The position numbers and the translations under genes are program-made. The notes beneath the pieces are model-generated. The model was given only the letters and a program-made list of their open reading frames with translations, was not told where the DNA came from and did not search any database. A DNA stretch of 63,978 bases, filler included, from Conidiobolus incongruus B7586 (Eukaryota), in assembly GCA_000697335.1 (NCBI GenBank). It is 15 parts of 15 records of this genome, joined end to end, with 100 filler letters (N's around TTAATTAATTAA, not from the genome) between each part and the next. Parts side by side here need not be neighbours in the genome. Positions count along the whole stretch, not along the records: positions 6,263 to 11,954 come from JNEM01005676.1; 14 more parts are not named here. One strand, given 5' to 3'. Numbering within the stretch: position 1 is the stretch's first letter; every line of letters begins with the position of its first letter. Below, one piece after another: positions 1 through 62,845 of the stretch.

Positions 1-2570
1 AAATATTAAATTTGAAGAAAATTCTATTTTATTAATTATTTTCAATACTTTATTAAGTTATTATAAATTTATTATTATAAACTTTAGTTTATATTACCCT
101 TATAACTTTTATTTAATTTATAAATTTTTTTAATCTTATTTTTAATAACTTTATTATCATTTACCTTAATAATATCTTAATTTATTAAAAAACGAAAGAA
201 GATTATATTTAACATGTTAATTAAGTTTTACAAATTATTTAAGAAAATAATTTACTTTAAAAATCTATTGAAATATAGTTTTAATACCTCTTCTCTTTTC
301 TTCTATAATTATATTATTTTTTTAAAGAAATAAGATTAATTCAATTAAACTCAGTTATATAAAAGCTGTTACTATATTAATAAACAAGGATCAACTTAAG
401 TTTATACTTAGATTATTAAATTATTTTAAAGATTTCATTTATTTTTTTGTTGAGCTTATAATCTTTTTAATTAATCTTTTAAGTAAAAACTTTTTTTTGA
501 ATAAACCCTATTATATACTTTTGATATAAATACTTTAATTATTTTTATTATTAATATTCTTATTTTATTTATTTTTGATCTTAAATTACCTATCATTATT
601 TTTACTAATTTGAATTTTTTTGTAATTAGTAGATAATTAATTAAATTTATATTTAATTATATTTTAACTTTTTATTATAAGATGAAATAATAAATAAAAG
701 AGAATAAGTTAGGTTTAATCTTACATATTATTATTTTAAAGCTAATAATATTCTAGTTAAGAATAATAAAACAACTTAAATTAAAATACCTAGTTAATAT
801 ATATAAACACTCTTTATTTTAATAAAGATAATTAAAAATCCCTTATATTCTTTATTTTGCAATATTTCCTTAATATTTACAAATTATAAATCACTTATCT
901 ATTTAAATACTTAGAAGCATTTATTAAGAAAATAAACTAGATAGATCAAAACTATCTAAGCTTATCTTTTCTTTATCTAATACCTTTTAGGTTAATAAAA
1001 TTATACTATAGATAATTTGTTAAAAAATTTTATATACTTATCCTTTTATTCTAATTATAAAAAACCAACAAACATTAACTTAATAATTATTAATAAAAGA
1101 AATAAAAAATTTATTAAAATTTTTTAAAAAATACTATTAAATAATAATTTCTTTATTTAGTTAAAGAAAAACTCTTTAATTTATTAGAATACTAATTAAA
1201 ATATGTCAAAAGATTTAAAATTATTGTTAACCTATTATATTATAATAATTATTAATATATCTTTAATATTATTAAGATTTAACAAATAATATTTGATTAA
1301 TATTATAACTTACTTATTAAAAAATATTAAAACTAGTTAAAAATTATTAAAAAAATTGAAATAAAATATTACTAGCTTTCCTTAATTAGATTAATTTAGA
1401 AATATACTAATACCTATAATATATGTTAAAAAAATAAATATAATACCCAATTAAAATATAGTAAACTTATTTCTTTATAAGTCCCTAATAAAATTTAATA
1501 ATAAATCCAAATTAATTTCATAAAAATTCTTAAATCAACAAATAGTTATAATAACTTACTAATTATAATTAATTTATACTTTAAATATGTTTATTTTATT
1601 CTTGTTTCAAAAATTATATAGTTAAAGATATTATATAACTATTATTCTTTAATATCTATACTTATTATAAAATTCCACAAACTATTATAATTAACAGAAA
1701 TATATAATTCAACTTTTATTTAGAAATTACTATCTTATTTTTTAAAATTAACTTAATTATATTTATTACCAATTATCACAAAACTAATAAACTTATTAAA
1801 AAAATTATTAAAATATTAAAATAAATCATTATAGCTTATATTGACATTAATCAGATAAATTAAAATATTTATATTTATCAACTCTAATATTTATTTAATA
1901 TTTTTATTAATAAATCAGTAAGTTTTAACTTTTATTTTATTAATTATAGCTAATATCTTAATTTAATAATTGTTTTAAAATATTAAAATAATATATCTTT
2001 AAATATTGTTATATTTTAATCTAATATCAAATATATTAATATCCTTATTAAATTTAATATAGAATAAAATCAAAGGATTATAAAACAATAATATTTAAAG
2101 TTATCTAGAAATTTATATAAAAATAAAATTAGTACATTTGTATTCTTAGAATAATTTACCTTTAAACTTATTTTACTCAAACCTAGTTTAAATCCAAAAT
2201 ATTTACTATAATATTATAATCTTTATAAGATTTAGTTTATCAATTCAAATTTTAAAAATATCACATTAATATTACTTCTAACTTTAAGGATCAAATTTAT
2301 CTTTCATATATCTAAAATCAAACCTTATTTTCAAGATTTTAATATTTTTCTTAATTGATTAAAAATATTAAAACTAGATCTAATAATTAAATAAGATAAA
2401 GAAGAAAAATACTATATTGATTATATAATTAAATTTAAATCTATTAAGAATAAGCTTTATTTCTATATAAAATAGATAGGTTATTTTATTAAAAAAGTTA
2501 TATAAGAGCCATTAAAAAATATTAAAAATATTTTAGCTTATTATACCTATTTGTAAAAATCTAAATAGTG
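1..2570 (+). mobile_element. Degenerate Ty3/Gypsy (chromovirus-type) LTR retrotransposon pol remnant: RNase H, integrase, chromodomain
   Basis: Manual translation. ~930-1025 K*TR*IKTI*AYLFFI*YLLG**NYTIDNL resembles RQARW...YRPG..N..ADAL. ~1660-1720 YKIPQTIIINRN resembles HGIP..IISDR. ~2270-2330 LLLTLRIKFIFHISKIKPY resembles LP..RIHPVFHVS.LKPY. 2401-2520 EEKYYIDYIIKFKSIKNKLYFYIK*IGYFIKKVI*EPLKN is a chromodomain with both Trp codons turned to stops. Confidence 0.85.
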
Positions 2571-2599
2571 TATCTTTTCTAAAAAACTTATTAAAAAAT

Positions 2600-3010
2600 A
2601 TTAAGGAACTAGTTTTTTAAATTTATATATATATTTTTATATAATTCAATTCATTATAAATTATATAATAAATTTATATTTTTATAATTAAATTAATTAT
2701 ATAAATAATATTAAATTATTAAATAAATTAAGTTCTTTTTTTTCTCAATTTTTACTATTTTTTATTTTTTTATTATTTCTAAGATTGAAACTATATCCTA
2801 TTAATATTATAATATATTAACACTATTTAATATATATCTTAATATATTAGTAACTCATCCTAATTTGAAGCTTAATTGATTTTATTTATATTTATACATT
2901 ATAGCTATATAATAATATTATATTTTATATTATATTACTTTTATATTAAAGTTTTCCTTTATATTATATTAATATTTTATCACTATATTTATAATATTTT
3001 TGGGTTATAA
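2600..3010 (+). repeat. Probable 3' LTR of the Gypsy element
   Basis: Directly follows the chromodomain. Homologous to 18331-18640 (shared 'attgaaactatat' and 'aatttgaagcttaatt'). Confidence 0.55.
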
Positions 3011-3110: not shown

Positions 3111-4455
3111 TATTATATATAATATTTTATATTATACTAAATTTTTTCTATTAGTATTATTATACTTAAATCCCTTTTTAAAAAAATTTACTTATATATC
3201 AATTAACTTTATAAAAAAGGTAAATCAACTTATGATATTATTAGAATTACTAGTGTTAGTTACTTTACTATAGTTAAAGTTATTAAAAATAACAATAAAA
3301 AAACATTTAAATTTAAATTTAAATATATTAAAATTATAAATAAATATAATAAGAAGTATATTTATAGGTTAGTTAATATAATCAAATATAATACTATTAT
3401 AAAAATACAACAAGAATTATAAAACAATATAACAAAATTAGTTAATACTAATATTATTATATATATTTTATATTAATATAGATATTACTTATATCTTAAT
3501 AAAAAACACTTTTAATTAAAAAAATCTTATTATAAAGTTAGATAAAAGTTTAAATATCACTATTAATATTAAACTAAAACTAATTAAATATAATGCTATT
3601 TAATTTAATAAAAATAAAATTATATTTTAATAAATTTAATAAAAAAACTAGATATTTTAAAAAAATATACAATTACTTTATAACTATCAAATTAATTTTA
3701 TTTAATAGTATAATTGTAAGTTAATTATTATTTAAAGATATATATTGTTTTTAAATATAAGATTTCTTTATAAAGTTAATAAAAGAATTAATACTAAAAT
3801 ATATTAAAATATTCTAAATAATAAATTAAAAAAAGACTATTAAATAATATAAATTAAAACAATCTGATGTTATTTTCTAATAAAATAATGTTTTTTGTTA
3901 TACTATAGCTTTTACTACTAAATAACTTAAAAATAACAAGATAATAAATATAAAGTAGTTTCTTTAATCTTTTAACTTTAATCTAATTAAATACCTTTAA
4001 AATTAGTTAAAAAAAGCTATTAAAGCTTTTCCCCTAATAAAAATTTTAAATAAACTTTAAAAATATATATAAGTAATATAAAACAAGATTAACTTTTTTT
4101 AATATAATAAGTTATTTGATTTTATACCTTACAAACTTAAGAAAGTTAGAAAAGTTAAAGATAAATACCCTAGGTTTTAATTTTTTTTATCACCAAAAAC
4201 CTATAAATTTATAACTTACCCTAAGTAAAATTTAAAGATTTATATTTTAACCAATTAATAACTAAATATTATGATTTAATGATATATATAATGAATAAAT
4301 ATAATAGATTTTGAATATTTAATTTAGATTTATTTTATTAAATATTAATCAAGTTATTAGTAAAAATATAAGTGTTTTTGATTTTATAACTTACTTTTAT
4401 AGGTTAATATATAAATGTTTTTAATTTTATAATTTATTTTTATAGGTTAGTATAT
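3111..4455 (+). mobile_element. Tc1-family DD34E transposon, degenerate copy (5' end lost in gap)
   Basis: Colinear with 18656-20175 and 47948-49520. Ends in the family terminal repeat (ttttataacttacttttataggttaata), present twice in tandem. Confidence 0.85.
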
Positions 4456-4634: not shown

Positions 4635-5627
4635 ATTAGGTAAATTATTTTAAAACTAGAAGAAAAATTATCTAATATTTATTAAAATTTAAAAAACTAA
4701 TTTTAACTATGATTTTTTTGATTCTTAATAGAGAAAAAAAAATATTGAAAGATATCTTGTTATTTTAGCTAGAGAATTATCTAAGCATTTTAATACTAAT
4801 CTTATAAATATATTAAATATATTTGAATTTAAACTTAAATTAATAAATAAAAACCCAAAATAGGTACCTTATAATTTAACTAAAATTTAAAAAAAAACTA
4901 AAATAGCTATTATTAAACAAAACTTATTTAAGTATTACCAGAAACCTAAGATTTTAAAACAAATATTCAAAATTAATGAATATTAAATCCTTTTGTATAA
5001 TTCTTTACTAAAATACAAATCAAAATATAAGATTAAGCTAAATCAACCCCTTTTATAAATCTTTTTAAATAATATTTTATTAATAAGTGAATATTAAATA
5101 ATACAATGAATTATAATAATTTATATTACTTTTATTTAGTTTCTAAAAAAAATCAATTAATAATAAGCTTTATACTGCTTTTTTAAATAAAAGTATTTTT
5201 AATTAATATTTTCTATTAAATTTGAAAAAACCTATTATTTTATATAATAATTCAAATTATATAAATTTAAAGTTGCAAAAAAATCTTCTAATAAAAAATA
5301 ACTAAAAAAACTACCATATTTAATATACTCTTTAAATTATAACTTATATAACTATAATTGTTTTTGGTAATTAAAAAACTAACTTATATGAAAAAATATT
5401 TTTACAAGAAAATTAAATTAATTTGTAAAATATCAAATTCAGTCTTTAACAAAAAGAATTATATTATAAATATTAAAAGTTTACCTAAAATATAGCAAAA
5501 AGTTATTAATAATCAAAGGAACTCTTAAATTTATATTATTTATTTATTTTTATATATTATATATCAAGATATTTATTTATTTTTGATTAAAAAAAAATTT
5601 CAAATTTTCAAAATATAAGGTAATAAT
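4635..5627 (+). mobile_element. mariner DD34D transposon, degenerate partial copy
   Basis: Colinear with 9230-10222: 'taggtaccttataat' (WVPH-like), 'ctaccatatttaatatactct' (PHPPYSPD-like), right end 'aaaatataaggtaata'. Confidence 0.85.
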
Positions 5628-6869
5628 AAATTAATATAAATAACAGAAGTTTTTGAAAAATTAAAATTTTTTTATATTTAATGATAAATTTTTATTTAAT
5701 TTTAATACAAATTTTTCAATTTATTAATAAAATTAGAATTTTTTAATAAACTATTAATTTAATTATTATATACAGTCAAAAACTAAAAAAATAAATTAAT
5801 TATAATTAAATAATCATCAATAATATAATTTAATTTTTAAATTATATTTATATTCAAAACAGTTAATAAAATACAAAATAATTAATTATATAATATGTAT
5901 TAAAATAATTAAACCAAAATTAATATAAATAATTTAGTAAATTATAATTTATTATAAAAAATTAATTAATATTAATATATAATATATAATAATTAAAAAT
6001 ATGATGAATATAATATATAATAATAAAATATCAAATAATATATTATTAAATATTTAGTTTATTTATTAGAATATATTTAAAATATTAAATAAATCTAAAA
6101 CAATAATTAAATATAGTTTTTTGGTTAGATAATAATAGCATCATTTATATAAATTTAATTTANNNNNNNNNNNNNNNNNNNNNNNNNNNNNNNNNNNNNN
6201 NNNNNNTTAATTAATTAANNNNNNNNNNNNNNNNNNNNNNNNNNNNNNNNNNNNNNNNNNNNAAAATATATTTTCCAATTTAAAATATATTTTTGATAAA
6301 ATATAATTATTTACTATATTTATCAATTCTTATAATTATATATAAAGTTCTATAAACAAGTTTATATATATCTATAGAAATTATTAAATTAGTGTTTTTG
6401 ATTTATATTTTAATATTTACATTTAAATTAATAAACTAAAGAAGTTTTCAATAAATATTACGGAATAAAAAAACTAATTAAATAATATTAGTTAATTAGT
6501 TTATAATATAGTAGTTCTAATATTTAATATTATATTAGAAATTATAATTAAACTTTTAACCTACTAGCAAAACTCTATTAAAAATAAAGTTGTTGAAACT
6601 TATAAATAACTTAAGGATAATTTTCTACTCAGATTATAGACTAATGTTTTTTTATTAGCTATCAAAAATGTTTATTAAAATATTTTATTAAAGTATTTTA
6701 AAAATATAACAAAATTAAAAAGTAGTGTAATAATTACTTATTAAGAATAATATAATAATTAATTTCTTTCTTTATATCCAATTTAAAAAATTTTTTAGAT
6801 ATATTTAAATATCAATTAATAATTATATTAATTATTTAAAAGGTATTTATAAATTCATTTTCCAATTAT

Positions 6870-8908: not shown

Positions 8909-10222
8909 TATAATCTTGAATTTAAAATAATGGGAAATCTTTTAATTTCTAATTTTTCATACATATTATTAATTTGAAATAAATTAATATATACAAAATT
9001 AATAGGGAATTATATATTTTTAAAATATATATATATAATATTTTTTTTGATTAAAAAATTAACTTTTTAAATTTGGTTGTTTAATTTAATCATGCTTAAA
9101 CTAAATAGTGATCATCAAAAGTTTTTTATTTCAGTATTAGTAAAACTTAACCATAAACCCTCTAAAATTATTTAAAATTTACAAGCAACTTTTAGTAATG
9201 AAGTATTATCTGAATCAACAATTTATTGCTAGGTAAATTGCTTAAAGGCTAAGAGAAAAACTATCCTAAACTTGCCAAAATCTAAAAGTTTAACTTTAAT
9301 TGTTATATTTTCAATTATTAATAAAATGAAAAAATAAATTGAAAAATATCTTTTTATTTCAGCTAGAGAATTATGTAAACACTTTAATATTAGTCTTATA
9401 AGTATTTTATATATATTAAAGTTTAAACTCAAATTAATAAATAAAAATGTAAAATGGGTACCTTATAATATAACTAAAGCTTAGAAAGAAGCTAAAGTAG
9501 TTATTACTAAACAGAACTTACTAAAATATTACCAGAAGCCTAGATTATTACAATGAATAATTACTATTGATGAATCTTAGATCCCTATGTATAATCTTTT
9601 ACCAAAACAAAAATTAAAATGCTGGATTAAACAAAATCAACCCCCTGTACAAATCCCTTTAAATAAGCAATTTATTAATAAGTGAATGTTAACTATTATA
9701 ATAGATTATAATGATATATGCTATTTTTATTTAGTTCTTATAGGAAAATCAATTAATAGTAAACTTTATATTGCTTTATTAAATAAAAGTATCTCAAATT
9801 GGTTTTCTTAATATAATTAGAGAAGACCTATTATTTTGCATAAAAATTGCAAAATATATAAATCTAAAGCTATAAAAAACTTTGTAATTAAAAATAACTG
9901 GAAAGAACTACCACATCTGATATACTCCTTAGATTATAACCCATGTGATTATAATTACTTTGGATAATTAAAAAATTAGCTTATAGGAAAGAAAATTTTT
10001 GCAAAAAAATTTAATTACTTTGTGAAACATCAAATTGCAGTTATTAATAAAAAATACTATTTTTTAGGTATTAGAACTTTGCCAAAAATATAGCAAACAG
10101 TAGTTAATAATAAAAGAAACTATTAAATTTATATTATATATTTATTTTTATATATTATATATTAAAATATTTATTTATTTTGAATTGCAGAAAAATCCCA
10201 TTATTTAAAATATAGAGTAATA
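8909..10222 (+). mobile_element. Full-length (~1.31 kb) mariner DD34D transposon; transposase frame 9092-10126 with 12 internal stops
   Basis: TIRs ta-taatcttgaatttaaaataatggga / tcccattatttaaaatatagagtaa-ta. Motifs KWVPY, IITIDES*, IILHKN, PHLIYSLDYNPCDY. 34 residues between the 2nd and 3rd catalytic positions. 344 codons, no net frameshift. Confidence 0.92.
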
Positions 10223-12094: not shown

Positions 12095-13650
12095 AATATA
12101 ATAATTTCCAAAAATAAATTATAAAATCAAAAACACTTATATTTTTACTAATAACTTAATATTAATTAAAATAAACCTAAATTAAATAATTCAAATCAAT
12201 TATATTTATTAAAAATATATAATTTTATATTAACAATTAGTTATTAATTTGTTAAAATATAAACCTTTAAATTTTAATTAACATAAGTTATAAATTTAAA
12301 GGTTTATAATAATGAAAAAAATTATAACCTAGTGTTTCTATCTTTGGTTTTTTAACTTTTCGAAATTTATAGGGTATAGAATAAATTAACTTCTTATACT
12401 AAAAAAGTTTAATCTTGTTTTATATTTCTTAACTTTATTTTTAAATCTATAAATTTTTTATTATAATAAAGCTTAAATATCCTTTTTAACTGTTCCTAAG
12501 AGTATATAATTAAGTTAAAGTTAGGATATTAAAGAAGTTTTTTATAACTATTATTTTGTTATTTTTTAATTTATTTGATAATAATAACTAAAATATAACA
12601 ACATGTATTATCTTATTAGAAAATAATATTAGATTTGTTTAACTTAATATTATTTAATAGTTTATTCAATTTATTATTTAAAATATTTTAATATAACCTA
12701 GCATAAATTCCAATATTAATTTTAAAAAAAATACCCTACATTAAAATATAAAATATATATTTAAATAATAATTAACCTATTATTATACTTTTGGTTAAAA
12801 TTACCATAATAGTTGCTAATTCATTTTATATATTTTTTTAAATCATTTAACTTTTTTATTAAATTTATTAAAGTATATTTTTAATATATTAAATTAAATA
12901 ACTTTAATTAATTTTAATATAATATTATTTGCAAAATTGAAACTCCCACCCAGCTTTATAATAAAGTTTCTTTAGTTGTGGGTGTTTTTTCTTAAGGTAT
13001 AAGTGGTATCTATTCTAATATAAAGCATATATAATAGTATTAGAATTAACTAATATTCTTAAATAGTCTTATAGTTTTTGTTGGATTTTTATAATAATAC
13101 TCTATTTGCTTATATTAATTTACCTACTGATATATTACTTAATATATTTATTTATTATGCTAATATACTTAAGTTTAAATTTAAATGTATTTTTATAGAT
13201 ATTCTTAATATCCTTAATTATATTAAACTAGCAAACATTAGAGATTCTAAAAATATCATGAGTTGATTTAACTTTTTAATTAAGTTAATTAATATACAAG
13301 TGTGTTTTTTTAGAGAGGGATTTTAGTATAATGATATTAAAATAAAATTTAATATAATTATAAAATATCATATAAAATAATAATAAAGAAAAATAAGATA
13401 TGGCTATATATTATTAAAAACATCCTTTTATCTCAAAAACCTACAAATTTATTACTTATTTTGATTAAACAATATAAGTTAATATTATTGCTAATAATTT
13501 ACTAAATATATCTAAATCAATTTATATATTATCAAATAATATATTTTAATTATGAATTAAAGTTTCGAATAATCTGATATTTATACCTATTTTAGTTATT
13601 AATTAATATTTATAAATTTGATTTTATGACTTATTTTTATAGATTAATAA
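12095..13650 (-). mobile_element. Tc1-family DD34E transposon, near full-length degenerate copy
   Basis: Reverse complement aligns with the + copies; terminal 'attttatgacttatttttatagattaata' at ~13621-13650. Confidence 0.85.
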
Positions 13651-14199
13651 ATATATTTTGAAAAAATATCTATTAATAAATTAAATAGAAAAATAAATAT
13701 CATTAAACTATGTATATTATATAGATATTTATATATTAAATTTTAATTTTTATATATATTAAAATTGAATAAACTAAAAACTTTTAGTTAGATTTAATTA
13801 TAATTAAATTTTATTATAATTTTTAACAAGTTTAATTTTATATTTTTTAAAACTTAATTATTAATTATATAAAAATATCTAAGCTTTTCAAATATCTTAT
13901 AAAGTTAATATATTTTTTAAAACTATTGTATTTTATTAGATATTTGATTTTATTGCAAAAAGGATATTATTCAAAANNNNNNNNNNNNNNNNNNNNNNNN
14001 NNNNNNNNNNNNNNNNNNNNTTAATTAATTAANNNNNNNNNNNNNNNNNNNNNNNNNNNNNNNNNNNNNNNNNNNNTATTTATAAATAATATGCTTATTT
14101 ATCTAATTTTATATAATACATTATTTTAACATAATATTTTATTAAGTTAAAAATTAATTTGAAAATTAAAGTTCATTAATAGTTTAAATTTAATAAAAT

Positions 14200-14790
14200 A
14201 ACCTCCATTTTTGTTTATATTTTAGTAAATATAGTGTAGCTTTAGTTATTCTAATATTTTTATTATTAATTTCATTAATCTAATTAAGTTTAAATATTAA
14301 TTTATAAAATATACTTATATATTTAATTTTAAATCAGCTTTATAATTATTTAATTAAAATCAAAAATTAGTTTTAAAGATATATTTTATATTATAAATTA
14401 AAGAAAAAATAATAATTAAAATTAATACTTTATATTTAGATAAATTTTAAATAATATCCCTTTTAGCTTTAAATTGACAAATTTAGGAATAATTGTTGGT
14501 TTTAAAAAATAAATCATCTTTATAAATTATTTACAAAATTTAAATGCTTTGTAAAAGTTTAAGGTTAAGCTTTAATATTATTAAAATAAAAGTCTTTTGA
14601 TGATTAATATCAAATTAAAATATAATTAGAATTAATTTTAAATTCTTAAATAAAAGTAATTTAGTGAAAATAATAATTTAATATATATAATTAGAAAATA
14701 CTAATTGTTTCATATATTTTGTATATATTATATTTTTTAATACTAATAATATATTTAAAAAATCAGAAATTAAAAAATTTAGTATTTGTA
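14200..14790 (-). mobile_element. mariner 5' half, strongly degenerate
   Basis: Reverse complement matches 8930-9500 ('aaaatcagaaattaaaaa', 'aaataaaagtcttttgatgatt'). Confidence 0.6.
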
Positions 14791-16050: not shown

Positions 16051-16624
16051 AAAATTATATTTTAAAATATATTTTATATAATAGTTTTAGAATAATTTAA
16101 TCAAATTAAAAATAATATTAGTTTGGATATTAAAATAGTAATAATTTATTCATTTTATGTTTAATCATTTTTATTATCCTATATTAATATAATTTAACAT
16201 TCTGCTATATGTCATTTTATACTTATTTTAGCTGCTATATTAATTTATTTTGTTATCTAAAACCAAAATCCAAAAAGTATAACTATATTAATATTTTTGA
16301 AATAACCTATATTTTAAAATTATTCATTTTTGTTATTTTAATAAATATTTTAAAATATATTATTTTTTCAATGACTGGTTATTATATTAATTATATTTTA
16401 TTTATCGATATTTTTGCTTTAATTTTTTGTTTCTAATTTTAAAATATTATATCAAAAGTTTTTTATTATTTTAAATTATTAAACATTCCTGAATATATAA
16501 TATTTTCTTATAATNNNNNNNNNNNNNNNNNNNNNNNNNNNNNNNNNNNNNNNNNNNNTTAATTAATTAANNNNNNNNNNNNNNNNNNNNNNNNNNNNNN
16601 NNNNNNNNNNNNNNTAAATAAATA

Positions 16625-18192
16625 TATATTAACTTATAAAAGTGAGTTATAAAATAAAAACATTTATATTTTTACCAATAACTTGATTAATATTTAATAA
16701 AATAAACTTAAATTAAATAATTAAAATCTATTATATTTATTAATAATATATATCATTAAATGATAATATTTAGTTATTAATTAGTTAAAATATAAACCTT
16801 TAAATTTTACTTAAGATGAGTTATAAATTTGTAGGTTTTTGGTGATAAAAAAATTAAAACCTAATATATCTACCTATAATTTTTCTAATTTCTTTAAGTT
16901 TATAAGGTATAGAATCAATTAACTTTTTATACTAAAAAGGGTTAATTTTATTCTATACTTCTTAAATATATTCTTAAAGCTAATTTAAAACTTTAATTAA
17001 GGGAAAACTTTAATAGCTTTTTTTAACTAATTCTAAAAGTATTTAATTAGGTTAAAATTAAAAAATTAAAAAAGCTATTTTATAACTATTATCTTGTTAT
17101 TTTTAAGCTATTTGGTAGTAAAGGTTATAATATAACAAAAGGTATTATTTTGTTAGAAAATAATATTAAATTTGCTTAACCTATATTATTCAATTGTTTT
17201 TTTAATTTATTATTTAAAATACTTTAGTATATTTTAATATTAATTCCCTTATTAACTTTATAAAAATAGCTTATACATAAAGATAATATATATCCTTAAA
17301 TAATAATTAACTTATTATTATATTTCTAGATAAAATTAACATAATAGTTATAAAATAATTCTATATCATTTCTAAAGTATCTAGTTTTTTTATTAATTCT
17401 ATTAAAATATATTTTTGTTTTATTAAATTAAATAACTTTACTCTAATTAATTCTAGTTTAATATTAATAATAACATTTAAACTCTTGTTTAGTTTTATAA
17501 TAGGATTTCTTTAATTAAAGATGTTTTTTCTTAAAGTGTAAGTAGTATCTATATTAATATAAAGTATATATAATATTATTAGTGTTAACTAATATTATTG
17601 TATAGTTTTATAGTTTCTGTTATATTTCTATAATAGTATTATATTTGCTTATTCTAATTAACCTATAGATATACTTCTTATTATATTTATTTATGATTTT
17701 AACACATTTAAGTTTAAGTTTAAATATGTTTTTATTGTTATTCTTAATAACTTTAACTATAGTAAATTAACTAACACTAATAATTCTAGCAATATTATAA
17801 GTTGATATATTTTTTGATAAAGTTAATTAATATATAAATAGATATTTTAAAGAGGGATTTAGGTATAATAATATTAATAAAAAAAATTTAGTATATTTAT
17901 AAAATATTATATAAAATAATAACAAAGAGAGAAAAAAGATATGGTTATATATTGTTAAATATATCCCCTTATCTCAAAAACATTAATTTATAGCTTATCT
18001 TAGTTAAATATTAAGAGTTAATATTTTTGCTAATAATTTACTAAATATATCTAAATATATTTATTTATTATCAAATAATATACCTTAATTATATATTATA
18101 GCTTTAAGTAATTTAATATATATAATTATTTTATTTATTAATTAAAATATATATATTTTTGATTTTATAACTCACTTTTGTGAGTTAGTATA
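16625..18192 (-). mobile_element. Tc1-family DD34E transposon, full-length (~1.57 kb) degenerate copy with both TIRs
   Basis: Left tatattaacttataaaagtgagttataaaat and right attttataactcacttttgtgagttagtata are inverted repeats flanked by TA. Confidence 0.9.
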
Positions 18193-18330
18193 TAAAATTT
18201 AAAAATATTGATATTATTATATATTTTTCANNNNNNNNNNNNNNNNNNNNNNNNNNNNNNNNNNNNNNNNNNNNTTAATTAATTAANNNNNNNNNNNNNN
18301 NNNNNNNNNNNNNNNNNNNNNNNNNNNNNN

Positions 18331-18640
18331 TTATATATATTTTTATATAATTTTATTAATTATATAGATAATATTGAATTTTCTAATAATTAAGTTTTTT
18401 TCTCTCATAATTTTTATTATCTTTTATCTTTTATATTATTTATAAAATTGAAACTATATTTTATTAATATTTTAGTATATTGGTATTATCTAATATAAAT
18501 CTTAATACATCAATGACTTATCTCAATTTGAAGCTTAATTAAACTTTGTTTATATTTACACACTATATTCTATACTACCTTAATATATTTTATGCTATAC
18601 TATTTTTATAACTAATTTCTTTTATATTTTATTAGATTAA
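18331..18640 (+). repeat. Second copy of the putative Gypsy LTR
   Basis: Alignable by eye to ~2690-2960. Confidence 0.55.
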
Positions 18641-18655
18641 TTATTTTTATACTTA

Positions 18656-20175
18656 TATACTAACTTATAAAAATAAGTTATAAAATTAAAAATATATATA
18701 TTTTAATTAATAACTAAAATAACTATATATATTAAATTACTTAAAATTATAATATATAACAAGATATATTATTTAATAATAAATAAATATATTTAGATAT
18801 ATTTAGTAAATTATTAGCATAAATATTAACCTTTAATATTTAATTAAGGTAAGTTATAAATTTAAAGGTTTTTAAGATAAAGGAATATATTTAATAATAT
18901 ATAACTATATTTTGTTGATCTTTTTATTATTATTATATAGTATTTTACAAATATTTTAAATTGTTTTTATTAATATTATTATATTTAAATCCTTGTTTAA
19001 AAAATTTTAATTATGTATTAATCAATTTTATAAAAAAAATAAATCAACTTATAATATTATTAGAATTACTAGTATTAACTAGTTTATTATAGTTAAGTTT
19101 TTAAGAATAATAATAAAGATATATTTAAACTTAAACTTAAGTATATTAAAATTATAAATAATCATGATAAGAAGTGTATTTATAGGTTAGTTAATATAAG
19201 TAAATATGATATTATTATTAAAATACAATAGGAATTATAAAACTATATAAGAATATTAATTAATACTAATATTATTATATATACTTTATATTAATATAGA
19301 TACCACTTATACCTTAAAAAAACACCCCTAATTAAAAAAATCTAATTATAAAGTTAAGTAGAAGTTTAAATATTACCACTATTATTAAATTAAAACTAAT
19401 TAAAGTAAAGTTATTTAGTTTAATAAAATAAAAATATATCTTAATAAATTTAATAAAAATGTTAAATATCTTAAAAAAATATAGAATTACTTTATAACCA
19501 TTATGTTAATTTTACCCTAAAGTATAATAGTAAGTTAATTATTATTTAGGGATATATATTGTTTTTTGATATAAGATATCTTTATAAAGTTAATAAGGGA
19601 ATTAATATTAAGATATACTAGAGTATTCTAAATAATAAATTGAAAAAACTATTGAATAATATAGGTTAAACAAATTTAATATTATTTTTTGACAAGATAA
19701 TACCTCTTGCTATATTATAGCTTTTATTACCAAATAACTTAAAAATAACAAAATAATAGTTATAAAATAATTTTTTTAATGTTTTAATTTTAATTTAATA
19801 AAATATTTTTAGAATTAGTTAAAGAAAGTTATTAAAGCTTTCCCTCTAACAAAAGATTTAAATTAGCTTTAAAAATATATTTAAAAAATATAAAATAAAA
19901 TTAACCCTTTTTAATATAAGTTAATTAACTTTATACCCTATAAACTTAAAAAAGTTAGAGAAGCTAAATATAAATACACTAAGTTTTAATTTTTTTTATC
20001 ACCAAAAACCTATAAATTTATGACTCATTTTAGGTAAAATTTAAAGGTTTATATTTTAACCAATTAATAACTAAATATCATTATTTAATGATTTATAATA
20101 TTAATAAATATATATATAATTTTAAATATTTAATTTAGGTTTATTTTATTAAATATTAATTAAGTTATTAATAAA
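18656..20175 (+). mobile_element. Tc1-family DD34E transposon, degenerate copy
   Basis: Left TIR tatactaacttataaaaataagttataaaat. IIF*QDNTSCY at 19681-19713 (cf. FQQDNAPCH). 34 residues separate this D from the E position, now AAA. Confidence 0.9.
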
Positions 20176-40329: not shown

Positions 40330-40824
40330 TATGTAACTTATATTAAAGTGTCTTAATAATTTTTTAACTCAAATAAAAAAATACTTTTTAATATAATTTT
40401 TCACTTTATTAACAATTAAAAAAATAACAGTTGAAATTAATCTTTTAAATTTTAATAAGTTTTAGGTAATTTCTCTTTTAATTTTAAAGTAATTTACCTA
40501 GTAATAAATTATTAATTTAAATAATACTTCATTACTAAAAGTTGCTTATAAATTTTAAATAATTTTAGAGTGTTTGTGGTTAAGTTTTATTGATACTAAA
40601 ATAAAAGACTTTTAATGGTTATTATTTAGTTTAAGCATAATTAAATTAAATAACCAATTTTAAAAAATAAATTTTTTAATCAAAAAAATTATTATATATA
40701 TATATAATTCAAACCTATTTATTTTCCTATTTGTTTTATATATATTTTTTATTTGAAACTAATAATATGTTTGAAAAATCAGAAATTAGAAAATTTCCCA
40801 TTTCTTTAATATTCTATAGTAATA
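40330..40824 (-). mobile_element. mariner 5' portion
   Basis: Reverse complement matches 8909-9400; ends tttcccatttctttaatattctatagtaata. Confidence 0.85.
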
Positions 40825-41646
40825 TTATAATAAATTAATTTTTTAATTCAGTTGATTGATTTTGATTTTATAATTTATACATTCAACATTAATAATACCT
40901 GGTATTGTTTAGTAATTCATTTATAAGCTTCTAATTTGAATTTTATATCATATCAAGCTTTTAAATTTCAATCTATTTTATAATGTGATTATTTTACTAA
41001 ACTATAACAAAAATAAAATTTGATTAAAAATAATAGTAAGTATTATTACCTATCTATTTAAAATATTTTATAATATAAAATTTGGTACTTATAAGGCTTA
41101 ATTAAATAATATTCTTAATATAAAACTTCAACATATACTTAAATCCAAATGGATTTTATCGAATAAAGCTATTGATTATCTATATTAAATAACTACTAAT
41201 CAATGTTTTAACAGTATTTTAAGAGTATAAATTACAGACTAATTTTGTGATATTCGTTATTTAAATAAATTAAAATAATATAAAAATTAAAATCATGGAA
41301 TAAAGAATAAAGTTTAGTTTATTATCCTACCAGCTAAAAGATATGTTATTTAACAAGAACATTTTGTATAGATATAAAAGGCATGATTATTTATACATTA
41401 ACATATATTCATGGAAAAACATGAAAAATTTTAATTTTAATGCATTTGATGAAAAAAAATAATAATGAAAAATTAACTTGATTAGAAGAATCCCATAATT
41501 GTTAATGAATAAAAGTAAATATAAATGGATATTATTAATTGAAACCTAAAAAAATGAATATACTAAATTATATTTCAATAATAATAAATTATAGAATTAA
41601 TTTTTTTTTATTAAACAAGAGCTTAAACTAATAAATAATTTAAATT

Positions 41647-45073: not shown

Positions 45074-47947
45074 TTCAGACTACTAAAAGATCTAAGTTAA
45101 AAGTCAGTAAAATTATAAAATACAGTTATTTTATAATAATAATAATAATAATAACTAGGAATTAAATTAATAAAAATAGGAAAATTCTTAATTGAATGAA
45201 AAAAAATCTTGGGAATAAGATTGTAGTATTTTAAAAGAAAAAAAATCATGGAAATTTTTGATATTTTCACTGTGATAAATTGCCAAAAATCTGTGCTGTT
45301 TTTCTATAAAAATATCCCATTTAACATTATTGAATACTGTTATAATATTCGAATATGTTTATCATACAGTGTACTTGAACAAAAATTGAGAAATATAATG
45401 TATATTATTTTAATTGTTAATTATCATACCTAATTCAGAATCAAAGTAAAGCAACTACGTTTTAAACTATTTGTCTTAACTTTGTACTAAAATCTCGCAT
45501 TTACCAAATGCTAAATTAAAGGATTTGAAATTTAATAAACTTATGGGAGAATTTTAATTTCACTAAACTTAAATAGGTTTTTATCAATTAATTGAAAATT
45601 TTTAATTATTATTATTGGATGAATTTTGAATATTGTGTCTCAAATTTCAGGAAATTAATAAATTTCAGGATACATTTAAATTAAACAAAGTATTTATTGA
45701 AATTCTAAGATCCAATTAGAGATTTCATATATTCGTAATTTTAAGTTCACCATAATAATTTTAATATGATAGGTTTATGAATTATATATTGAATTTAATT
45801 ATTATCATTATTTGAACGATATTCAATTATTATTATTATTATAGCTGTTAATTTATTTTAAATTGTAAAAATTTATATATGCAAATGATGATTCAATATG
45901 ATTTGATATCCTTACATATTAATTCATAAAGTTTTTACAAAAGCGTATATAATTTATATTTAAGTAAAATTATATTTGTTATATATAATAGTCAAAATAC
46001 AATTATTTTTGTAATTAAATCTGTGCATTTAATTCAACATATATATAAATTCCATAATCAATAACGATGAATATCGCATTGTTCTAAATAACAAATAATG
46101 TGAAATATTAATCCAAAAATAATCTAAAGTTAATTGGATATGTGGTATTTTATACTATTTAGCCTTATATTAGCATATGAATTAGTTTTAAGAGGATGAA
46201 TTTCATATCTAATAATAAATCTAAATACTGTATCCAGGAATATTAATCTTGGAAATACTTTAGAGAACATCAATATTGCTGAATCAAATATTTAATTTTG
46301 ATTTTTTTTAAATATATTCCAAAATTTATATTTACAAGGAAAATGTACATCAATTTGAATAAAACATGTCATTTTAAGCGAGTAAATATATTTATTTCAT
46401 CACTTGATATATGGTATAATGCTATTGAATGAATAAAAATAAATATTTGTATTTTATAATTGTTTTTTACATGAATTTTCCAAATAGATAAATTCCATTT
46501 GAGTGAGAGATAACACATTGATTCACAGTTATTTTTTGGGTTTCGTTTTATGTTAATCAATATGATATATAATTAAACTTAATAATATTTAGTTCATTAA
46601 TACTAATTTTGATACATATGTATTATAAACAAGAAAATATGTTTTAAATTCCATATTTATCAAACTTTACGGAATATGATATACAATCCAATATCTATTT
46701 TAATTATAATAATTATAGATAACACAATATTTATTCCATTTTAACTCTAATTTAGTCTCTTCAAATGAATTTAATGTAAAATAATTTAATTATATCTTTA
46801 TCATATTTCTTTGAAAATCTAGGGTAATAAAATTAATTTTGTACAAAACCTTTAAAAATTTAAATTCAGTAAATAAATTTATTCAAATTAAAATTAAATT
46901 GAATATATAAATATTTTAATAAACAATTGATTTAAAATTGGTATATTTGATATATTTTTAAAATATTTGGTTATTAATCTAAAATTATATATATAATATT
47001 GTTTGATTAGTGATGTTATTTTTTAAAAAGCTATTACATATTTGAAAAAATAATTTATTAATTATTCAAATAAAATCAATCTTATTATAATAAATTGGTT
47101 TTAATATACTAACTAATTACATACTAAAACTGATATTTGAAAAAAATAATATAATTCATATTAATAATTATTAATAAAGTGATATACCATATTTTTGTTT
47201 GCTTAAAATTAATTTTCACATATAAAAATTTGAAATAATTGAAAATAATAATAGTAAAAATTCAAATACAATTATTATTTAAATTATTAATTTATTTGAT
47301 CAATATAAGAAATATATTTTTTTATTTAATTGTTTTCAATGAGAGGTTTTCCAGAATATTGAAATATGTTTTTTAAATAAATTTGATTAAACATTTTATT
47401 TTATTTTATAATTTATTATATTTTAATAGTTTATATTTTATCTCAAATTTAATAAAATAGGAATTTTTATTTAAATATATTATTAATTTCAAAAAAAAAT
47501 ATAAAAAAATAAATAGAAAGAAATAATTTTAAATCATATATATTATTATATATTTTTTATATAAAAATTAATTTTAAAGTTTATTAAATTTAATTAAATT
47601 TGAAGCATTTATTAATTATCAAGGGTCTTATAATTTAATAATAATAAAATTCAACAATATATGTTTTAAAAATAATTACATTTGATAAAAAACTTATTAA
47701 GATAATATTTTATATAAATTAATTNNNNNNNNNNNNNNNNNNNNNNNNNNNNNNNNNNNNNNNNNNNNTTAATTAATTAANNNNNNNNNNNNNNNNNNNN
47801 NNNNNNNNNNNNNNNNNNNNNNNNATTATTAAAGAATTAATTAAGTCATTTATAAAATCATAAAAAATTTTAATTTTATAACTTATTTTTATAAATTAGT
47901 ATATATATATATATATATATATTATGAAAATTATTAGATATAATATA

Positions 47948-49520
47948 TACACTAGCCTATAAAAATAAGTCATAAAATTAAAATTACTTAAATATTTACC
48001 TATATCTTATATAATTCTTAATTAAATAAATTTAAATAACAATATATAGTTTACCTATATTAATTGATTATAACTAACTTTATTTGATTATATTTCATTA
48101 TCTATTGGTTATTATATCAAAACCTAAAATTTAATTAAGGTGAGTTATAAATTTATGGGTTTATAAGTTAAAGGGATATAAATAACAAAATTTATATATA
48201 TCTTTTTTTTCTTTTATTATATTATATATATTATAAAACTATTAAGCTAATATTTTAAAATTAATATTATAATACTTAAATCTTTTTTTAAAAAAGTTCA
48301 CTTATATATTAATCAACTTCATAATGAAAATAAATCAACTTATAAGATTGCTAGAATTATTAGTGTTAGCTAATCTATTAAAGTTAGGGTTATTAAGAAC
48401 AATGCTAAAAAAACACCTAAACTAAAACTTAAGTATATTAAGATTATAGATAAACATGATGAAAAATATTTTTATAGATTAGTTAGTATAAATAAATATA
48501 ATATCATTATAGAAGTATAACCAGAATTACAAAACTATATAAGAATATTAGTTAGTATTAATACTATTATATATGTTTTATATTAAAATAGATACCACTT
48601 ACATCTTAAGAAAAAACACCCCTAATTAAAGAAGTTTTATTATAAAGCTAGGTAAGAGTTTGAATGTCAATACTAAAGTTAAATTGAAACTAACTAGAGT
48701 AAAGTTATTTAGTCTAATAAAATAAATATATATTTTAATAAATTTAATAAAAAAGCTAGATATTTCAAAAAAGATAAAAAACTATTTTATAACCATTATG
48801 TTATTATAACCTAAAAATATAATAATGGGTTAATTATAGTTTGGGGATATATATTATTTTTAGGTATAAGGTATCTTTATAGGGTTGATGGGGGAATTAA
48901 TACTAAAATATACTAAAGTATTCTAAACAATAAATTAAAAAAATTATTAAGTGATATAGATTAAAAAAATCAAATATTATTTTCTAACAAAATAATACAC
49001 CTTGTTATATTATAAACTCAACTATTAAATGATTTAAAAATAACAAAATAACTATTATAAAAAAGCCTCTTTAATCTCCTAATCTTAACCTAATTAAATA
49101 TCTTTAAGATCAACTAAAAAAATCAATTAAAGTTTTTCTCCTAGCAAAAAATTTAAATCAACTTTAAAAGTATATTCAAGAAGCTTAAAATAATATTAAT
49201 TTTGCTTAATATAAGGAACTAGTTGACTTTATGCCTTGTAAACTTAAATAAGTTAGAAAAGCAAAAGATGGATATACTAGATATTAATTTTTCTATCAAT
49301 ACTAAAACCTACAAATTTATTACTTATTTTAAATATACTTTTAATTTTAATATATCAATTATTAATTAATTAAACTTAACTTTATATATTATATTATAAA
49401 TAAAAAATATATATAAATTACATAATTCAATATAAGTTTATTTAAATTAGAATTGATTAAAATATTAAAAGAAATATATATATATATTTAATTTATGACT
49501 CATTTTTCCAAGCTAATATA
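47948..49520 (+). mobile_element. Tc1-family DD34E transposon, full-length and comparatively well-preserved copy
   Basis: TIRs ta-cactagcctataaaaataagtcataaaat / atttatgactcatttttccaagctaata-ta. Frame from 48272 gives STYKIARII, KVI*SNK (KVIWSDE), KYNNGLIIVWG (KHGGG.IMVWG), *SPNLNLIKYL* (QSPDLNPIE.LW). Confidence 0.92.
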
Positions 49521-49999
49521 TATTTATATATATNNNNNNNNNNNNNNNNNNNNNNNNNNNNNNNNNNNNNNNNNNNNTTAATTAATTAANNNNNNNNNNN
49601 NNNNNNNNNNNNNNNNNNNNNNNNNNNNNNNNNAGTTATATATATATATATAAAATTAGTAATAAAACCAATATAATATAAAAAAAGATATAATTTATTA
49701 ACTATATGATAAATTAATATATTAGTAATTAATGGTAATTTAAATTTTAGAAATAAGTCAATATAAATATATTAAATTATAACCTCGATAGTATCGACAA
49801 AATATAATATTGATAAATATTTACAATATTACAAATTAATATTAGTAATCAAATAATAATAAGCGTTAAAAAGAAAAATAAAAGACAAATTTAATAACAA
49901 AATTATAATTAAGTATAAAATCAATTTAAATATATAAAAATATATATATGAAAATTAATCTTATAATTAAGTAAAAAATAATTTTTTGATAATAATTAT

Positions 50000-51200
50000 T
50001 TCATTATTATTTTAAAATTTATTTTAAATCAAAATAACTTAATAATATCTTATTTTGATTATATAAAATATAACCATCTAGGAAATTTTCAATAAAAAAT
50101 GAATAATTATTAGAAATTTTAAAATATTTTATAAACCAAACAAAAAAATATAGATTTAAATATTATATTATATAATATATCCAATATTGATTTTTTACAA
50201 AATTTTCAAAATAATAATTAATAATAAACAGTTATTAAATTAAATTATTTTTAATTAATTTAATTAATTCAAAATTAAAAATTTAATATAAGAGGATTAC
50301 CATATGAATATTATTTTATATCTATCATTAATAAAAGAAATGAAAATAAAATTAAGAAATATTTTAAATAATATCCTAATATATCAATAAAAAATAGAAT
50401 TATTTTCTATTTAATATCAATTAAAATATTATCTTATTAAAAGATATTTTAACATCAGTTAAAAAATTAAAAATATGGGTAGCTTATTTTTACTAAATAT
50501 CAAATTAATAACAAAAAAGATATAGCTAGTAAAAATTGATGTTATTATAATACTTATAATATAATTTTTTAACAATTAGGATAATAAATAGATTATAGGT
50601 GTTATTTATCATTTATTACTAAGGAATAAAAAAAATACTTGTGTAGAAAAATCAAAGCCAATATTACAAATTCCAAAATAAAAATTATTTAAAAAATATT
50701 ATAATTAAGCAAAAATATTGATATTATAACATTTTGTGAATTATTATGAAAAAAAATAAATTATAATAATTGAATGTATTATAGATTTTTAAAATACTGT
50801 GATAATAAATAGTATTAAAAAATTCAATTCAAATACCATTTATTTTATATAATAATAACTCTTTATATAACAAAAATGATCAAAAATTTGATTATTGAAA
50901 AGAACTGGGGTTTATTACCACATCCACTATATTCACCCGATATGAATTAATGTGGGTATGATTATTTTGGTAAATTAAAGAATTTGATTTGGGCAAGGAT
51001 ATTTGATAAATTTAAACTTTAAAATTTCAAAATCAAAGATTGAATTTGAAGATAAATTATAAAAACCTATGTAAAAGGGTGAAGCAATTATTATTAGTAT
51101 AGAATAATATAATCGAAAAACAAGGAAATTATTAATTATTAATACCATATTATTTTTGCTTTGAATTTTTTTTATTTTACTAAAATAACAATTTGAAATT
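50000..51200 (+). mobile_element. mariner-like remnant of a related subfamily
   Basis: IWVAY at ~50475 and LPHPLYSPDMN*CGYDYFGKLK at ~50915-50980; boundaries uncertain. Confidence 0.65.
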
Positions 51201-61250: not shown

Positions 61251-62845
61251 CTCTTAATTAAATTTATTTTATTCTTTTATATATCTTAAATAATTTTAAC
61301 TATTTTCCCAATAATTTATAAATCAATGGAAAAAATTAAAATTCCATATTTATTTAATATATAAATGATCTAAAAATATAGGTTTATAATCCTATATATA
61401 GACTCAAGGCTATTAACTATTATTTTATATTAATTTTTATATAAAATTTATTAAATATAGTTTTACTTAATTATTAAAACTTCCTTCAAATTTATAAAGG
61501 TAAATAATTTCTTTAATATTTAGTTTCTTTATTTATTTTTATCTAGAGTTTAAATAATATTAAAATAAATCAATGAATATTAAAAAAACTATCAAATAAA
61601 TTTATTATCTATATTTTATTTCTAAAAATTTANNNNNNNNNNNNNNNNNNNNNNNNNNNNNNNNNNNNNNNNNNNNTTAATTAATTAANNNNNNNNNNNN
61701 NNNNNNNNNNNNNNNNNNNNNNNNNNNNNNNNATAGTTAATTAAATTATATAAATATATATATAAGAATTTATGGAATTAATATTAAAAAATTTTATTAA
61801 ATAATTTTTTAAAAAATATATATTTATTAAATTATTAAAAATAAATATAATAAGATAAGATATTTTTAATATATTTTAAAGTTTATTATATAGCTTTTAT
61901 AATAAGATAGCTTATTTATTAAATATATAAATAAATTTTAACCCTAATATATTGAAAATTAATTATATAGTTAATATAGTATTATCTAATATTATTATTA
62001 TCAATAAATTAATCTAGTTTTGAGATTTTCAATAAATTAAAAAAGTATCAAAATTTTCAAAATAAGTTTTGATTTTAAAAATATAAAAAAAAGTTTAACC
62101 TCAAAGTTCAAAATATTTTCAAAATTTAAATTAATAAATTCAATCTTAAATCGGTTGTAAAATAATAACAAGTATTTTAGATTTTAACTAAATTTAAATA
62201 AGATAGATATAACAAACTATTATTTTAAATAAATAAATATAATAACTTTATATTTAAAAAAAATTTCTAAATAACTTTGAGTATTGTTATTTTTTGATCG
62301 TTTAATTTTCTTCTAGATTTAATTGAATAAAGAAAATAATATACTTAATATTAAATTATAATTTAATAATATTTAAAAATAAATTTAAAACTTTATTACA
62401 ATTAATATGATTTATGTTAAAATCTGTTGATTTATTTATAGAGATTTTGAGTAAATATTTAAGTTAATAGATATAAATATCATGATTAAATTAATTAATA
62501 TTAAAATAAGCTTATATCATTTGTTTTAAGGTTTTAATCATTTTTCAAAGATATATGAGTTTGATAATAATTAATAATAGATATAACCAAGTTAATCTTA
62601 AGGAAAATAAATAATAACCTCCAAACTTAGAATTAAAATTAATTATTTTTATTTGATATAATTATTGATCAGATATATATTAGATAAAACTATTAAAAAA
62701 TAATAATTATATACTGCTCTTAATTATAAATTATTTTAAATTACGAATAAAACTAATATATTTAAAAAATAAATTAATTAAAGTTATTAAGTTATTATAA
62801 TTAATTATTGATTTAAAGACTTTTATATAATTATGTTAAATTTAT

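What the first reader, a model, noticed from the sequence alone, without database searches (positions are those of the whole stretch)
8909..10222. RIP-like C>T/G>A hypermutation of repeats in an apparently non-Dikarya fungus
Seen: the mariner transposase keeps one frame for 344 codons yet has 12 stops, each one transition away from CAA/CAG/CGA/TGG. The Tc1 and Gypsy copies show W>*, Q>*, D>N, E>K, H>Y and P>L at conserved motifs, many in CpA/TpG context. Neighbouring single-copy genes are intact and much more GC-rich. Established: this pattern marks repeat-induced point mutation, which is RID-dependent in Neurospora and mainly documented in Dikarya. Inference: a homology-directed mutator acts in this lineage, possibly with different enzymology. 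The taxon assignment is itself inferred.
Basis: partly seen in the sequence, partly recalled or inferred. Interest (0 to 1): 0.9.

Follow-up and report, generated by a model that had tools for sequence, protein, structure and literature searches.

The report
Transposon C-to-T hypermutation in Conidiobolus fungus
Dead transposon copies in this Conidiobolus-type fungus, which lies outside the fungal group where the RIP genome defence is established, carry far more C-to-T changes than any other kind while the non-repeated DNA beside them lacks that mark, likely because repeat-targeted DNA methyltransferases mutate them.

Summary
The mariner frame has 12 stops in 344 codons. Both window tubulins fall inside the Conidiobolus coronatus clade at 100/100, so the fungus is Zoopagomycota, not Dikarya.

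At conserved transposase positions, 72 of 170 codons differ by C>T/G>A only and 1 by the reverse. In three Tc1-like copies, per-site C>T odds are about 30 times any transversion. Transposon DNA differs from unique non-coding DNA: GC 13.4 vs 18.8%, CpG o/e 0.10 vs 0.67, CpA o/e 0.67 vs 1.08. Neither AT drift nor CpG-only decay explains this.

It is not Neurospora-type RIP by context: CpG is absent, then CpA > CpT > CpC. C loss does not follow copy age. Homology trigger, timing and enzyme are untested, as no genome is held.

Best reading: repeat-targeted methyltransferase-driven hypermutation, RIP-like in outcome. RIP was already proposed for Entomophthorales from index data; a 2025 survey scored all 8 Zoopagomycota 'no_rip'. 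This scan noted similar patterns earlier in Endogonales and Dimargaritales.

The parts
8909..10222 (+). Dead mariner (DD34D) DNA transposon, the best-preserved copy in the window; GC 18.8%, 0 CpG in 1314 bp
9092..10126 (+). Transposase pseudogene, one frame, 344 codons, 12 internal stops (TAG 6, TAA 4, TGA 2)
8917..8952 (+). Core of the left terminal inverted repeat (eroded)
   Evidence: local alignment to the right end
10179..10214 (-). Core of the right terminal inverted repeat (eroded)
4637..5628 (+). Mariner copy, 78% identical to the finding
62843..63658 (-). Mariner copy, 77% identical
40248..40833 (-). Mariner 5' piece at the end of a gene-bearing contig
39582..40113 (+). Mariner 5' piece on the tubulin contig; most eroded copy (GC 8-9% in the ORF part); links the family to the taxon marker
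14270..14780 (-). More distant mariner 5' piece (68% identical)
47915..49530 (+). Tc1-like element with long eroded inverted repeats; reference copy
16615..18224 (-). Tc1-like copy (close trio); 0.9% private transversions, inferred CpA loss 0.78
18602..20175 (+). Tc1-like copy (close trio)
3111..4420 (+). Tc1-like copy (close trio)
12096..13700 (-). Tc1-like copy with 6.4% private transversions and 7 private indels but no more C loss
32198..32714 (-). Tc1-like end piece on a gene-bearing contig
63645..63978 (-). Tc1-like end piece
1107..2657 (+). Eroded repeat with a second copy at 61733-63222 (-); read as Ty3/Gypsy integrase from recalled motifs only
   Evidence: Pfam blank
33765..35102 (-). 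Alpha-tubulin A, intact; taxon marker and control
37359..38693 (-). Alpha-tubulin B, intact, 89% identical to a C. coronatus tubulin; 79.6% DNA identity to tubulin A
35110..37350 (.). Largest of 10 unique non-coding control stretches (GC 18.7%, CpG o/e 0.77, CpA o/e 1.06)
50600..51040 (+). Divergent, indel-rich mariner relic without the family signature (CA+TG 40, CT+AG 16 over 50600-51013); internal control

Best explanation
Mariner and Tc1-like copies in this Conidiobolus-lineage fungus carry a large excess of C-to-T changes on both strands that the unique DNA beside them lacks, and the likely cause is repeat-targeted cytosine methyltransferases whose marked cytosines are converted to thymine. 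Shown: direction, size, confinement to the elements, and context order (CpG absent, then CpA > CpT > CpC). Inferred: a DNMT1-type enzyme accounts for CpG and a DIM-2-type enzyme for the non-CpG contexts. Also inferred: the conversion is fast, so most loss falls early after insertion and then slows as targets run out or copies diverge. That would make it RIP-like in outcome and closest in working to the Dim2-dependent mitotic mutator of Zymoseptoria tritici, without needing RID. How repeats are recognised (DNA pairing, small RNA or heterochromatin) and at what life stage is not shown.
For: Direction: at 49 columns conserved in 98 intact mariners, 170 codons from 6 copies gave 62 unchanged, 72 reachable only by C>T/G>A, 1 only by the reverse, 35 other. 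Size: Tc1 trio singleton odds per copy are C>T 0.52, C>A 0.019, C>G 0.006, T>A 0.016, T>G 0.002, T>C at most 0.043. The codon model puts C>T/G>A at about 94% (Tc1 trio) and 81% (mariner) of substitutions. Genome-wide copies: in run X1, 118 of 241 C/G positions vary to T/A in at least 5% of laid depth, against 12 of 241 to a transversion. Confinement: TE 15.9 kb has 7 CpG and CA/CT ratio 0.52; unique non-coding 13.6 kb has 81 CpG and 1.22 (CpG p 5e-20). At 4 element edges on gene contigs the ratio goes from 0.65 inside to 1.06 in the first 250 bp outside. Non-CpG targets: CpA/TpG is depleted, whereas CpG decay alone would enrich it. Conserved Trp codons read TAG 7, TAA 6, TGG 2, AAG 1, TGA 0 of 16. 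A prior-free trio test gives survival CpR 0.38, CpT 0.50, CpC 0.69 (p 0.003 and 0.0004). Not clock-like: private transversions span 0.9-6.4% with no relation to GC left (Spearman -0.14, p 0.70, n 10). Precedent: Z. tritici Dim2 gives >95% C>T in methylated repeats during mitosis (PMC8016269); Dim-2 and DNMT1 occur in early-diverging fungi (PMC7862722); five entomophthoralean genomes encode PF00145 proteins (PMC11105155).
Against: No methyltransferase gene or methylome of this organism was seen, as no genome is held. Published 5mC in Zoopagomycota is described as scarce (PMC11258239). Z. tritici Dim2 mutations are >98% CpA and spare CpG, unlike here. Overall Ts/Tv is only 1.2-1.3 and copies carry 1-6% transversions and indels, so ordinary decay is layered on top. 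How many CpG the active elements had cannot be fixed: only 2+2 column pairs show both TG and CA, so the model's CpG loss of 0.91-0.99 is partly prior. The model assumes a star tree; the trio shares some history (9 informative transversion splits, excess joint losses). The age test has only 10 copies and may be saturated. 'Unique' DNA was shown unique only within the window, and some low-GC unannotated stretches reach 10-13% GC with normal CpA, so background drift is itself strong.
Confidence: 0.5

Rival explanations
1. True RIP-type defence: duplicated DNA is recognised by direct homologous pairing around sexual (zygospore) development and mutated in bursts, by a RID-independent or divergent RID-like enzyme.
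For: Element-confined edges. Copies with about 1% transversions are already fully eroded and loss is unrelated to age. Full-length copies sit at 72-87% pairwise identity, near the roughly 80% limit recalled for RIP. A divergent mariner relic lacks the signature (CA+TG 40 vs CT+AG 16, p 2e-8 against family rate). CpA leads the non-CpG contexts. Z. radicans scored 24.2% RIP by index.
Against: CpG is the most depleted context and CpT is heavily hit. No strand-coordinated runs in 18 copy-tests, all |z| < 1.9, though repeated rounds would hide them. [quoted passage not shown] 8 of 8 Zoopagomycota scored no_rip. The family reached very high copy number (8,563-11,575 unitigs laid per run). The relic was found because it is well preserved and is partly eroded upstream.
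Confidence: 0.25
2. Slow passive deamination of 5-methylcytosine in long-methylated transposons (CG plus non-CG methylation), with no accelerated mutator.
For: CpG first, both strands, no clustering. 5mC sits in repeats in Phycomyces and Linderina (PMC11258239). Copies are old enough to carry transversions and indels.
Against: Non-CpG C>T runs 13-100 times the T>A rate per site, above the roughly tenfold effect recalled for methylated CpG in mammals. A passive clock predicts loss rising with transversion load, which is not seen.
Confidence: 0.17
3. A cytidine deaminase (AID/APOBEC-like) attacks transposon DNA.
For: Only the direction of change fits.
Against: Context depends on the 3' base, with little 5' effect, whereas deaminases are recalled to read the 5' base. 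Both strands are hit evenly without runs. DNA transposons have no long single-stranded stage (established knowledge).
Confidence: 0.04
4. Genome-wide AT-biased drift acting on unselected DNA.
For: Unique non-coding DNA is itself only 18.8% GC, and some unannotated stretches are 10-13%. About a third of pairwise differences are A<->T.
Against: TE copies fall below the unique-DNA GC level with non-overlapping intervals and an opposite dinucleotide pattern. A simulated drift to 19% GC gave 0.24-0.28 loss in all contexts and GC 0.33, against 0.35-0.91 and GC 0.15 observed (one run per scenario).
Confidence: 0.04

Closest known systems
Dim2-dependent mitotic C>T mutator of Zymoseptoria tritici (PMC8016269; passages read)
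   Same: C>T makes up most mutations (>95% there; about 81-94% here), is confined to repeats and includes strong CpA loss; no sexual stage is needed there.
   Different: There >98% of changes are at CpA and CpG is spared; here CpG is absent and CpT and CpC are also lost. That fungus is an ascomycete that also has RID. No enzyme was seen here.
Repeat-induced point mutation of Neurospora crassa and other Pezizomycotina (RID-dependent)
   Same: C:G>T:A on both strands of repeats, genes and flanks spared, stops from Trp/Gln/Arg codons, CpA the top non-CpG context.
   Different: CpG is more depleted than CpA; Ts/Tv overall 1.2-1.3; composite index of the named copy 0.0; homology trigger, premeiotic timing and RID untested; host is Zoopagomycota.
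CpG + CpA transposon signature of Tuber melanosporum, and CpG + CpA of Aspergillus niger/fumigatus (PMC4352252; passages read)
   Same: Both CpG and CpA are lost in TE copies; that paper assigns CpG to methylation-deamination and CpA to RID.
   Different: In that study every genome with a CpA or CpT signature was an ascomycete with a RID/Masc1 gene. Here CpA and CpT loss occur in a phylum where the passages read report no RID.
Index-based RIP proposal for Entomophthorales (Zoophthora radicans 24.2%; PMC11105155; passages read)
   Same: Same order of fungi, same hypothesis.
   Different: That work used composite indices only and flagged major caveats. Here copies were aligned and polarised with intact homologues, in a Conidiobolus-lineage genome.
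CpG-only TE erosion of basidiomycetes (DNMT1/Masc2) and TpCpG hypermutation of Pucciniomycotina (PMC3318451, PMC4352252; passages read)
   Same: CpG is eliminated from repeats.
   Different: CpA/TpG is depleted here rather than gained, and no 5'-T preference at CpG was seen.

Membership tests
RIP (Neurospora type) | C:G>T:A transitions on both strands of repeats, far above other changes | tested here: met
RIP (Neurospora type) | Confined to repeated DNA, unique DNA spared | tested here: met
   uniqueness checked only inside the window
RIP (Neurospora type) | CpA is the dominant target | tested here: not met
   CpG o/e 0.10 vs CpA 0.67; CpA 0.62-0.80, CpT 0.50-0.56, CpC 0.35-0.41 lost. CpA leads only among non-CpG contexts.
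RIP (Neurospora type) | Triggered by homology between duplicates above length and identity limits | tested here: inconclusive
   Divergent relic lacks the signature; the tubulin pair at 79.6% is intact but old and under selection; neither separates pairing from small-RNA or chromatin targeting
RIP (Neurospora type) | Episodic, strand-coordinated rounds | tested here: inconclusive
   No runs in 18 copy-tests; loss unrelated to age in 10 copies
RIP (Neurospora type) | Premeiotic timing | not testable with these tools
   needs crosses
RIP (Neurospora type) | Requires RID/Masc1 | not testable with these tools
   no genome held; literature passages list no Zoopagomycota RID
Dim2 mitotic mutator (Z. 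tritici) | C>T dominates mutation in repeats | tested here: met
   81-94%
Dim2 mitotic mutator (Z. tritici) | >98% CpA, CpG spared | tested here: not met
Dim2 mitotic mutator (Z. tritici) | Functional dim2 gene and 5mC on repeats | not testable with these tools
   no genome or methylome
CpG-only 5mC decay (DNMT1/Masc2 type) | Loss confined to CpG, with gain of CpA/TpG | tested here: not met
   CpA/TpG o/e 0.67 in TEs vs 1.08; a CpG-only simulation gave 0.25-0.31 non-CpG loss
Mariner (DD34D) transposons | About 350-aa transposase with D,D34D triad, and terminal inverted repeats | tested here: met
   columns D160, D251 (eroded in all 3 copies), D286; hits at E 1.9e-40; eroded TIR core
Dikarya | Marker genes group with Asco- or Basidiomycota | tested here: not met
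   Best identity 89% and 86% to C. coronatus, clade 100/100. No Dikarya row was in the tree; the only one among the 120 listed hits was 70% and partial.

The most novel reading that the evidence does not exclude
A homology-sensing, RID-independent repeat mutator works in Entomophthoromycotina. Repeat-directed C-to-T hypermutation would then predate Dikarya or have arisen repeatedly in zygomycete lineages, and k-mer and index screens miss it in very AT-rich genomes.
Probability: 0.25. Interest if true: 0.85.

Novelty: new variant of a known kind. Interest (0 to 1): 0.58.

Why it matters
Whether RIP-like mutagenesis exists outside Dikarya is disputed in print. One paper proposes it for Entomophthorales from indices alone; a kingdom-wide survey finds it only in ascomycetes and scores C. 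coronatus 'no_rip'. This window gives alignment-level evidence of strong non-CpG C>T loss confined to repeats in a Conidiobolus-lineage genome. It also shows that the standard index can read 0.0 on a heavily hit copy. Conidiobolus-type fungi grow in culture and many form zygospores (recalled), so mitotic versus sexual origin and the enzyme can be tested. That would show whether the DIM-2 branch of repeat mutagenesis is older than RID.

Tried and rejected
No whole genome is held, so no DNMT, RID or deaminase search was possible. Exact look-ups of 8 window protein references found none in the collection; two were off by one codon and were redone. A metagenome scan with tubulin B gave 78 loci, best 75% identity, so there is no orthologous non-coding control. 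No RNA holder was listed; three same-label runs shared next to no words and were not used. Reads were laid only on 8860-10100, so copy variation in the finding's flanks and in unique DNA stays open. Pfam was blank for the Gypsy-like pair and both flanks of the finding. A word-index search for Tc1 relatives was blank, so the Tc1 model used an open-frame prior only. The unconstrained nucleotide model misassigned CpG>ApG and underestimated ancestral GC, so it was replaced by the codon model. The first Tc1 codon run crossed a shared frameshift and was redone. No host-gene pseudogene was found as a control. Bewick et al. 2019 is not held and is known only through PMC7862722. Searches for prior reports. 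Among the listed results only PMC11105155 proposes RIP for this order; no alignment-based report for Conidiobolus was listed. I rejected the stop-codon argument as a tautology and the composite RIP index as insensitive here.

Full report
Setting. No whole genome is held. The window is 15 short contigs joined by fixed spacers. The finding lies on a 5.7-kb contig of 13.7% GC with 3 CpG. Gene-bearing contigs are 20-28% GC and their coding sequence is 43% GC.

Taxon. Alpha-tubulin B is 89% identical to a Conidiobolus coronatus tubulin, against 76% for Basidiobolus and 74-76% for Mucoromycota. In a tree of 28 tubulins (26 chosen from the 120 listed hits, no Dikarya row) both window genes fall in the C. 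coronatus paralogue clade at 100/100, each beside a different paralogue (bootstrap not fully settled). The organism is therefore Conidiobolus lineage, Entomophthoromycotina, Zoopagomycota. The repeats belong to it: a mariner piece shares the tubulin contig, and runs found with the tubulin stretch hold 8,563-11,575 unitigs that lie on the mariner (four runs, one sample, possibly the source).

The element. 9092-10126 is a mariner transposase pseudogene with 12 internal stops in 344 codons. It matches 1,354 proteins at E <= 0.001, best 1.9e-40, and has D,D34D spacing. That every stop is one transition from a sense codon is true of any stop. Against other copies, 5 of 12 trace to TGG, CGA or CAG, 4 are stops in all copies seen, 2 need a transversion and 1 is unclear. 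The window holds six mariner copies, seven Tc1-like copies and one pair of a third repeat. The Tc1 label has weak Pfam support and a mariner-profile hit at E 2e-7. The Gypsy label is from recalled motifs only.

Direction and size. I aligned 98 of 151 intact relatives (those of 300-380 aa). At 49 columns with at least 70% one residue, 170 codons from six copies gave 62 unchanged, 72 reachable only by C>T/G>A, 1 only by the reverse and 35 other. In the three closest Tc1 copies the singleton odds per copy are C>T 0.52, C>A 0.019, T>A 0.016 and T>C at most 0.043; two mariner trios give 0.52 and 0.43 against T>A 0.041 and 0.034. Raw Ts/Tv is only 1.20-1.29 because 85-90% of sites are A or T. Across the genome's copies, 205 of 256 variable places in run X1 are transitions.

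Context. A codon model infers active elements of about 37% (mariner) and 43-44% (Tc1) GC. Fractions of C lost are CpA 0.62, CpT 0.56, CpC 0.35 for mariner and 0.80, 0.50, 0.41 for the Tc1 trio. One simulation per scenario recovered the inputs; drift and CpG-only scenarios gave 0.24-0.31 non-CpG loss. Two checks need no prior: conserved Trp codons read TAG 7 against TGA 0 (p 0.016), and trio survival is CpR 0.38, CpT 0.50, CpC 0.69. CpG is nearly absent (7 in 15.9 kb, about 71 expected), but the number in the active elements cannot be fixed.

Is it repeat-specific? Ten non-coding stretches between genes (13.6 kb, no repeat in the window above shuffled level) have GC 18.8%, CpG o/e 0.67, CpA 1.08, CpT 0.88. 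TE copies have 13.4%, 0.10, 0.67 and 1.29, with non-overlapping bootstrap intervals. At four element edges on gene contigs the CA/CT ratio returns from 0.65 to 1.06 within 250 bp. A divergent mariner relic near 50600-51040 has decayed by indels to unique-DNA composition and keeps CpA; it was found by its best-preserved part, and its upstream motif is eroded. Against this reading, some unannotated stretches are 10-13% GC with normal CpA, so background drift is strong, and genome-wide uniqueness of the controls is untested.

Timing. Private transversions range from 0.9% to 6.4% among ten copies with no relation to GC left. Copies with about 1% transversions have lost 78-81% of CpA; the copy with 6.4% and seven indels has lost 68%. 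This favours fast early loss over a passive clock. The trio shares some history and saturation may hide a trend. No strand-coordinated runs were found.

Mechanism. The order CpG, CpA, CpT, CpC, dependence on the 3' base and even use of both strands fit cytosine methyltransferases (inference). DIM-2 and DNMT1 occur in early-diverging fungi (PMC7862722, passages). Dim2 alone raises C>T in repeats more than tenfold during mitosis in Z. tritici (PMC8016269, passages), and N. crassa DIM-2 prefers CpT (same paper; PMC13297926, passages). I therefore favour methyltransferase-driven, repeat-targeted hypermutation (0.5) over pairing-triggered premeiotic RIP (0.25), passive 5mC decay (0.17), a deaminase (0.04) and drift (0.04). 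No enzyme, methylome or cross was available, and 5mC is reported scarce in Zoopagomycota (PMC11258239, passages).

Prior work. PMC11105155 (passages and supplement search) proposes RIP in Z. radicans from indices, with caveats. PMC12543289 (abstract, passages, sections 8 and 9, supplement rows) finds RIP-like signatures only in ascomycetes and scores 8 of 8 Zoopagomycota no_rip. Seven of its supplements were not searched and three were too large; they may list Rid1 and Dim2 per species. PMC4352252 (passages) found CpA or CpT signatures only with RID. PMC5751038 (passages and supplement search), PMC3318451 (passages) and PMC9915587 (passages, no Conidiobolus) were also consulted. Earlier notes of this scan report similar erosion in Endogonales and Dimargaritales (unchecked AI notes, not support). 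None was found for Conidiobolus or Entomophthorales.

Verdict. Real, repeat-confined, largely non-CpG C>T hypermutation in a non-Dikarya fungus. It works like RIP in outcome but fails the CpA-dominance test and lacks evidence on trigger, stage and RID, so it is not filed as RIP. New variant of a known kind; interest 0.58.

Noticed in passing
window 50600-51200 (+): Divergent mariner relic about 330 bp from the 3' end of a gene: the motif WGLLPHPLYSPD is fully kept, with CpA sites and one CpG, while the motif about 60 bp upstream is eroded. A mosaic that may mark where targeting stops near genes.
   Followed up: partly
window about 48935-48955 and the matching place in the other Tc1-like copies: Four of five Tc1-like copies, from two subfamilies, share the same frameshift at an A-run inside the DDE region; the fifth differs there. 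Either a non-autonomous lineage or a slippery site.
   Followed up: partly
window 33765-38693: Tandem alpha-tubulin paralogues, each orthologous to a different C. coronatus paralogue; five C. coronatus alpha-tubulins share one contig length, so the array predates the species split.
   Followed up: partly
window 22994-24100 and 25591-26247 (-): Two tandem CAP-domain (cysteine-rich secretory) genes, 42% identical in the domain, one with a P/Q-rich repeat linker.
   Followed up: no
window 6263-8890 and 10230-11954: Both flanks of the finding carry the repeat signature (CpG o/e 0.29 and 0.00; CA/CT 0.65 and 0.46) but match nothing in the window or Pfam; probably other eroded repeats.
   Followed up: partly
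window 20276-21900, 46900-47724, 49634-50800: Stretches of 10-13% GC with normal or high CpA/CpT ratio; they suggest the background equilibrium may be below 19% GC.
   Followed up: partly
window 22039-22112 (-), 42474-42692, 43900-45000, 53648-53914, 55663-56430, 57309-58835: A tRNA gene; Tim44-like and CHCH exons; an intron-rich RS/RRM-type splicing factor read by eye; an AlkB-type 2OG-Fe oxygenase and a Nab2-type zinc-finger gene. All look ordinary.
   Followed up: no
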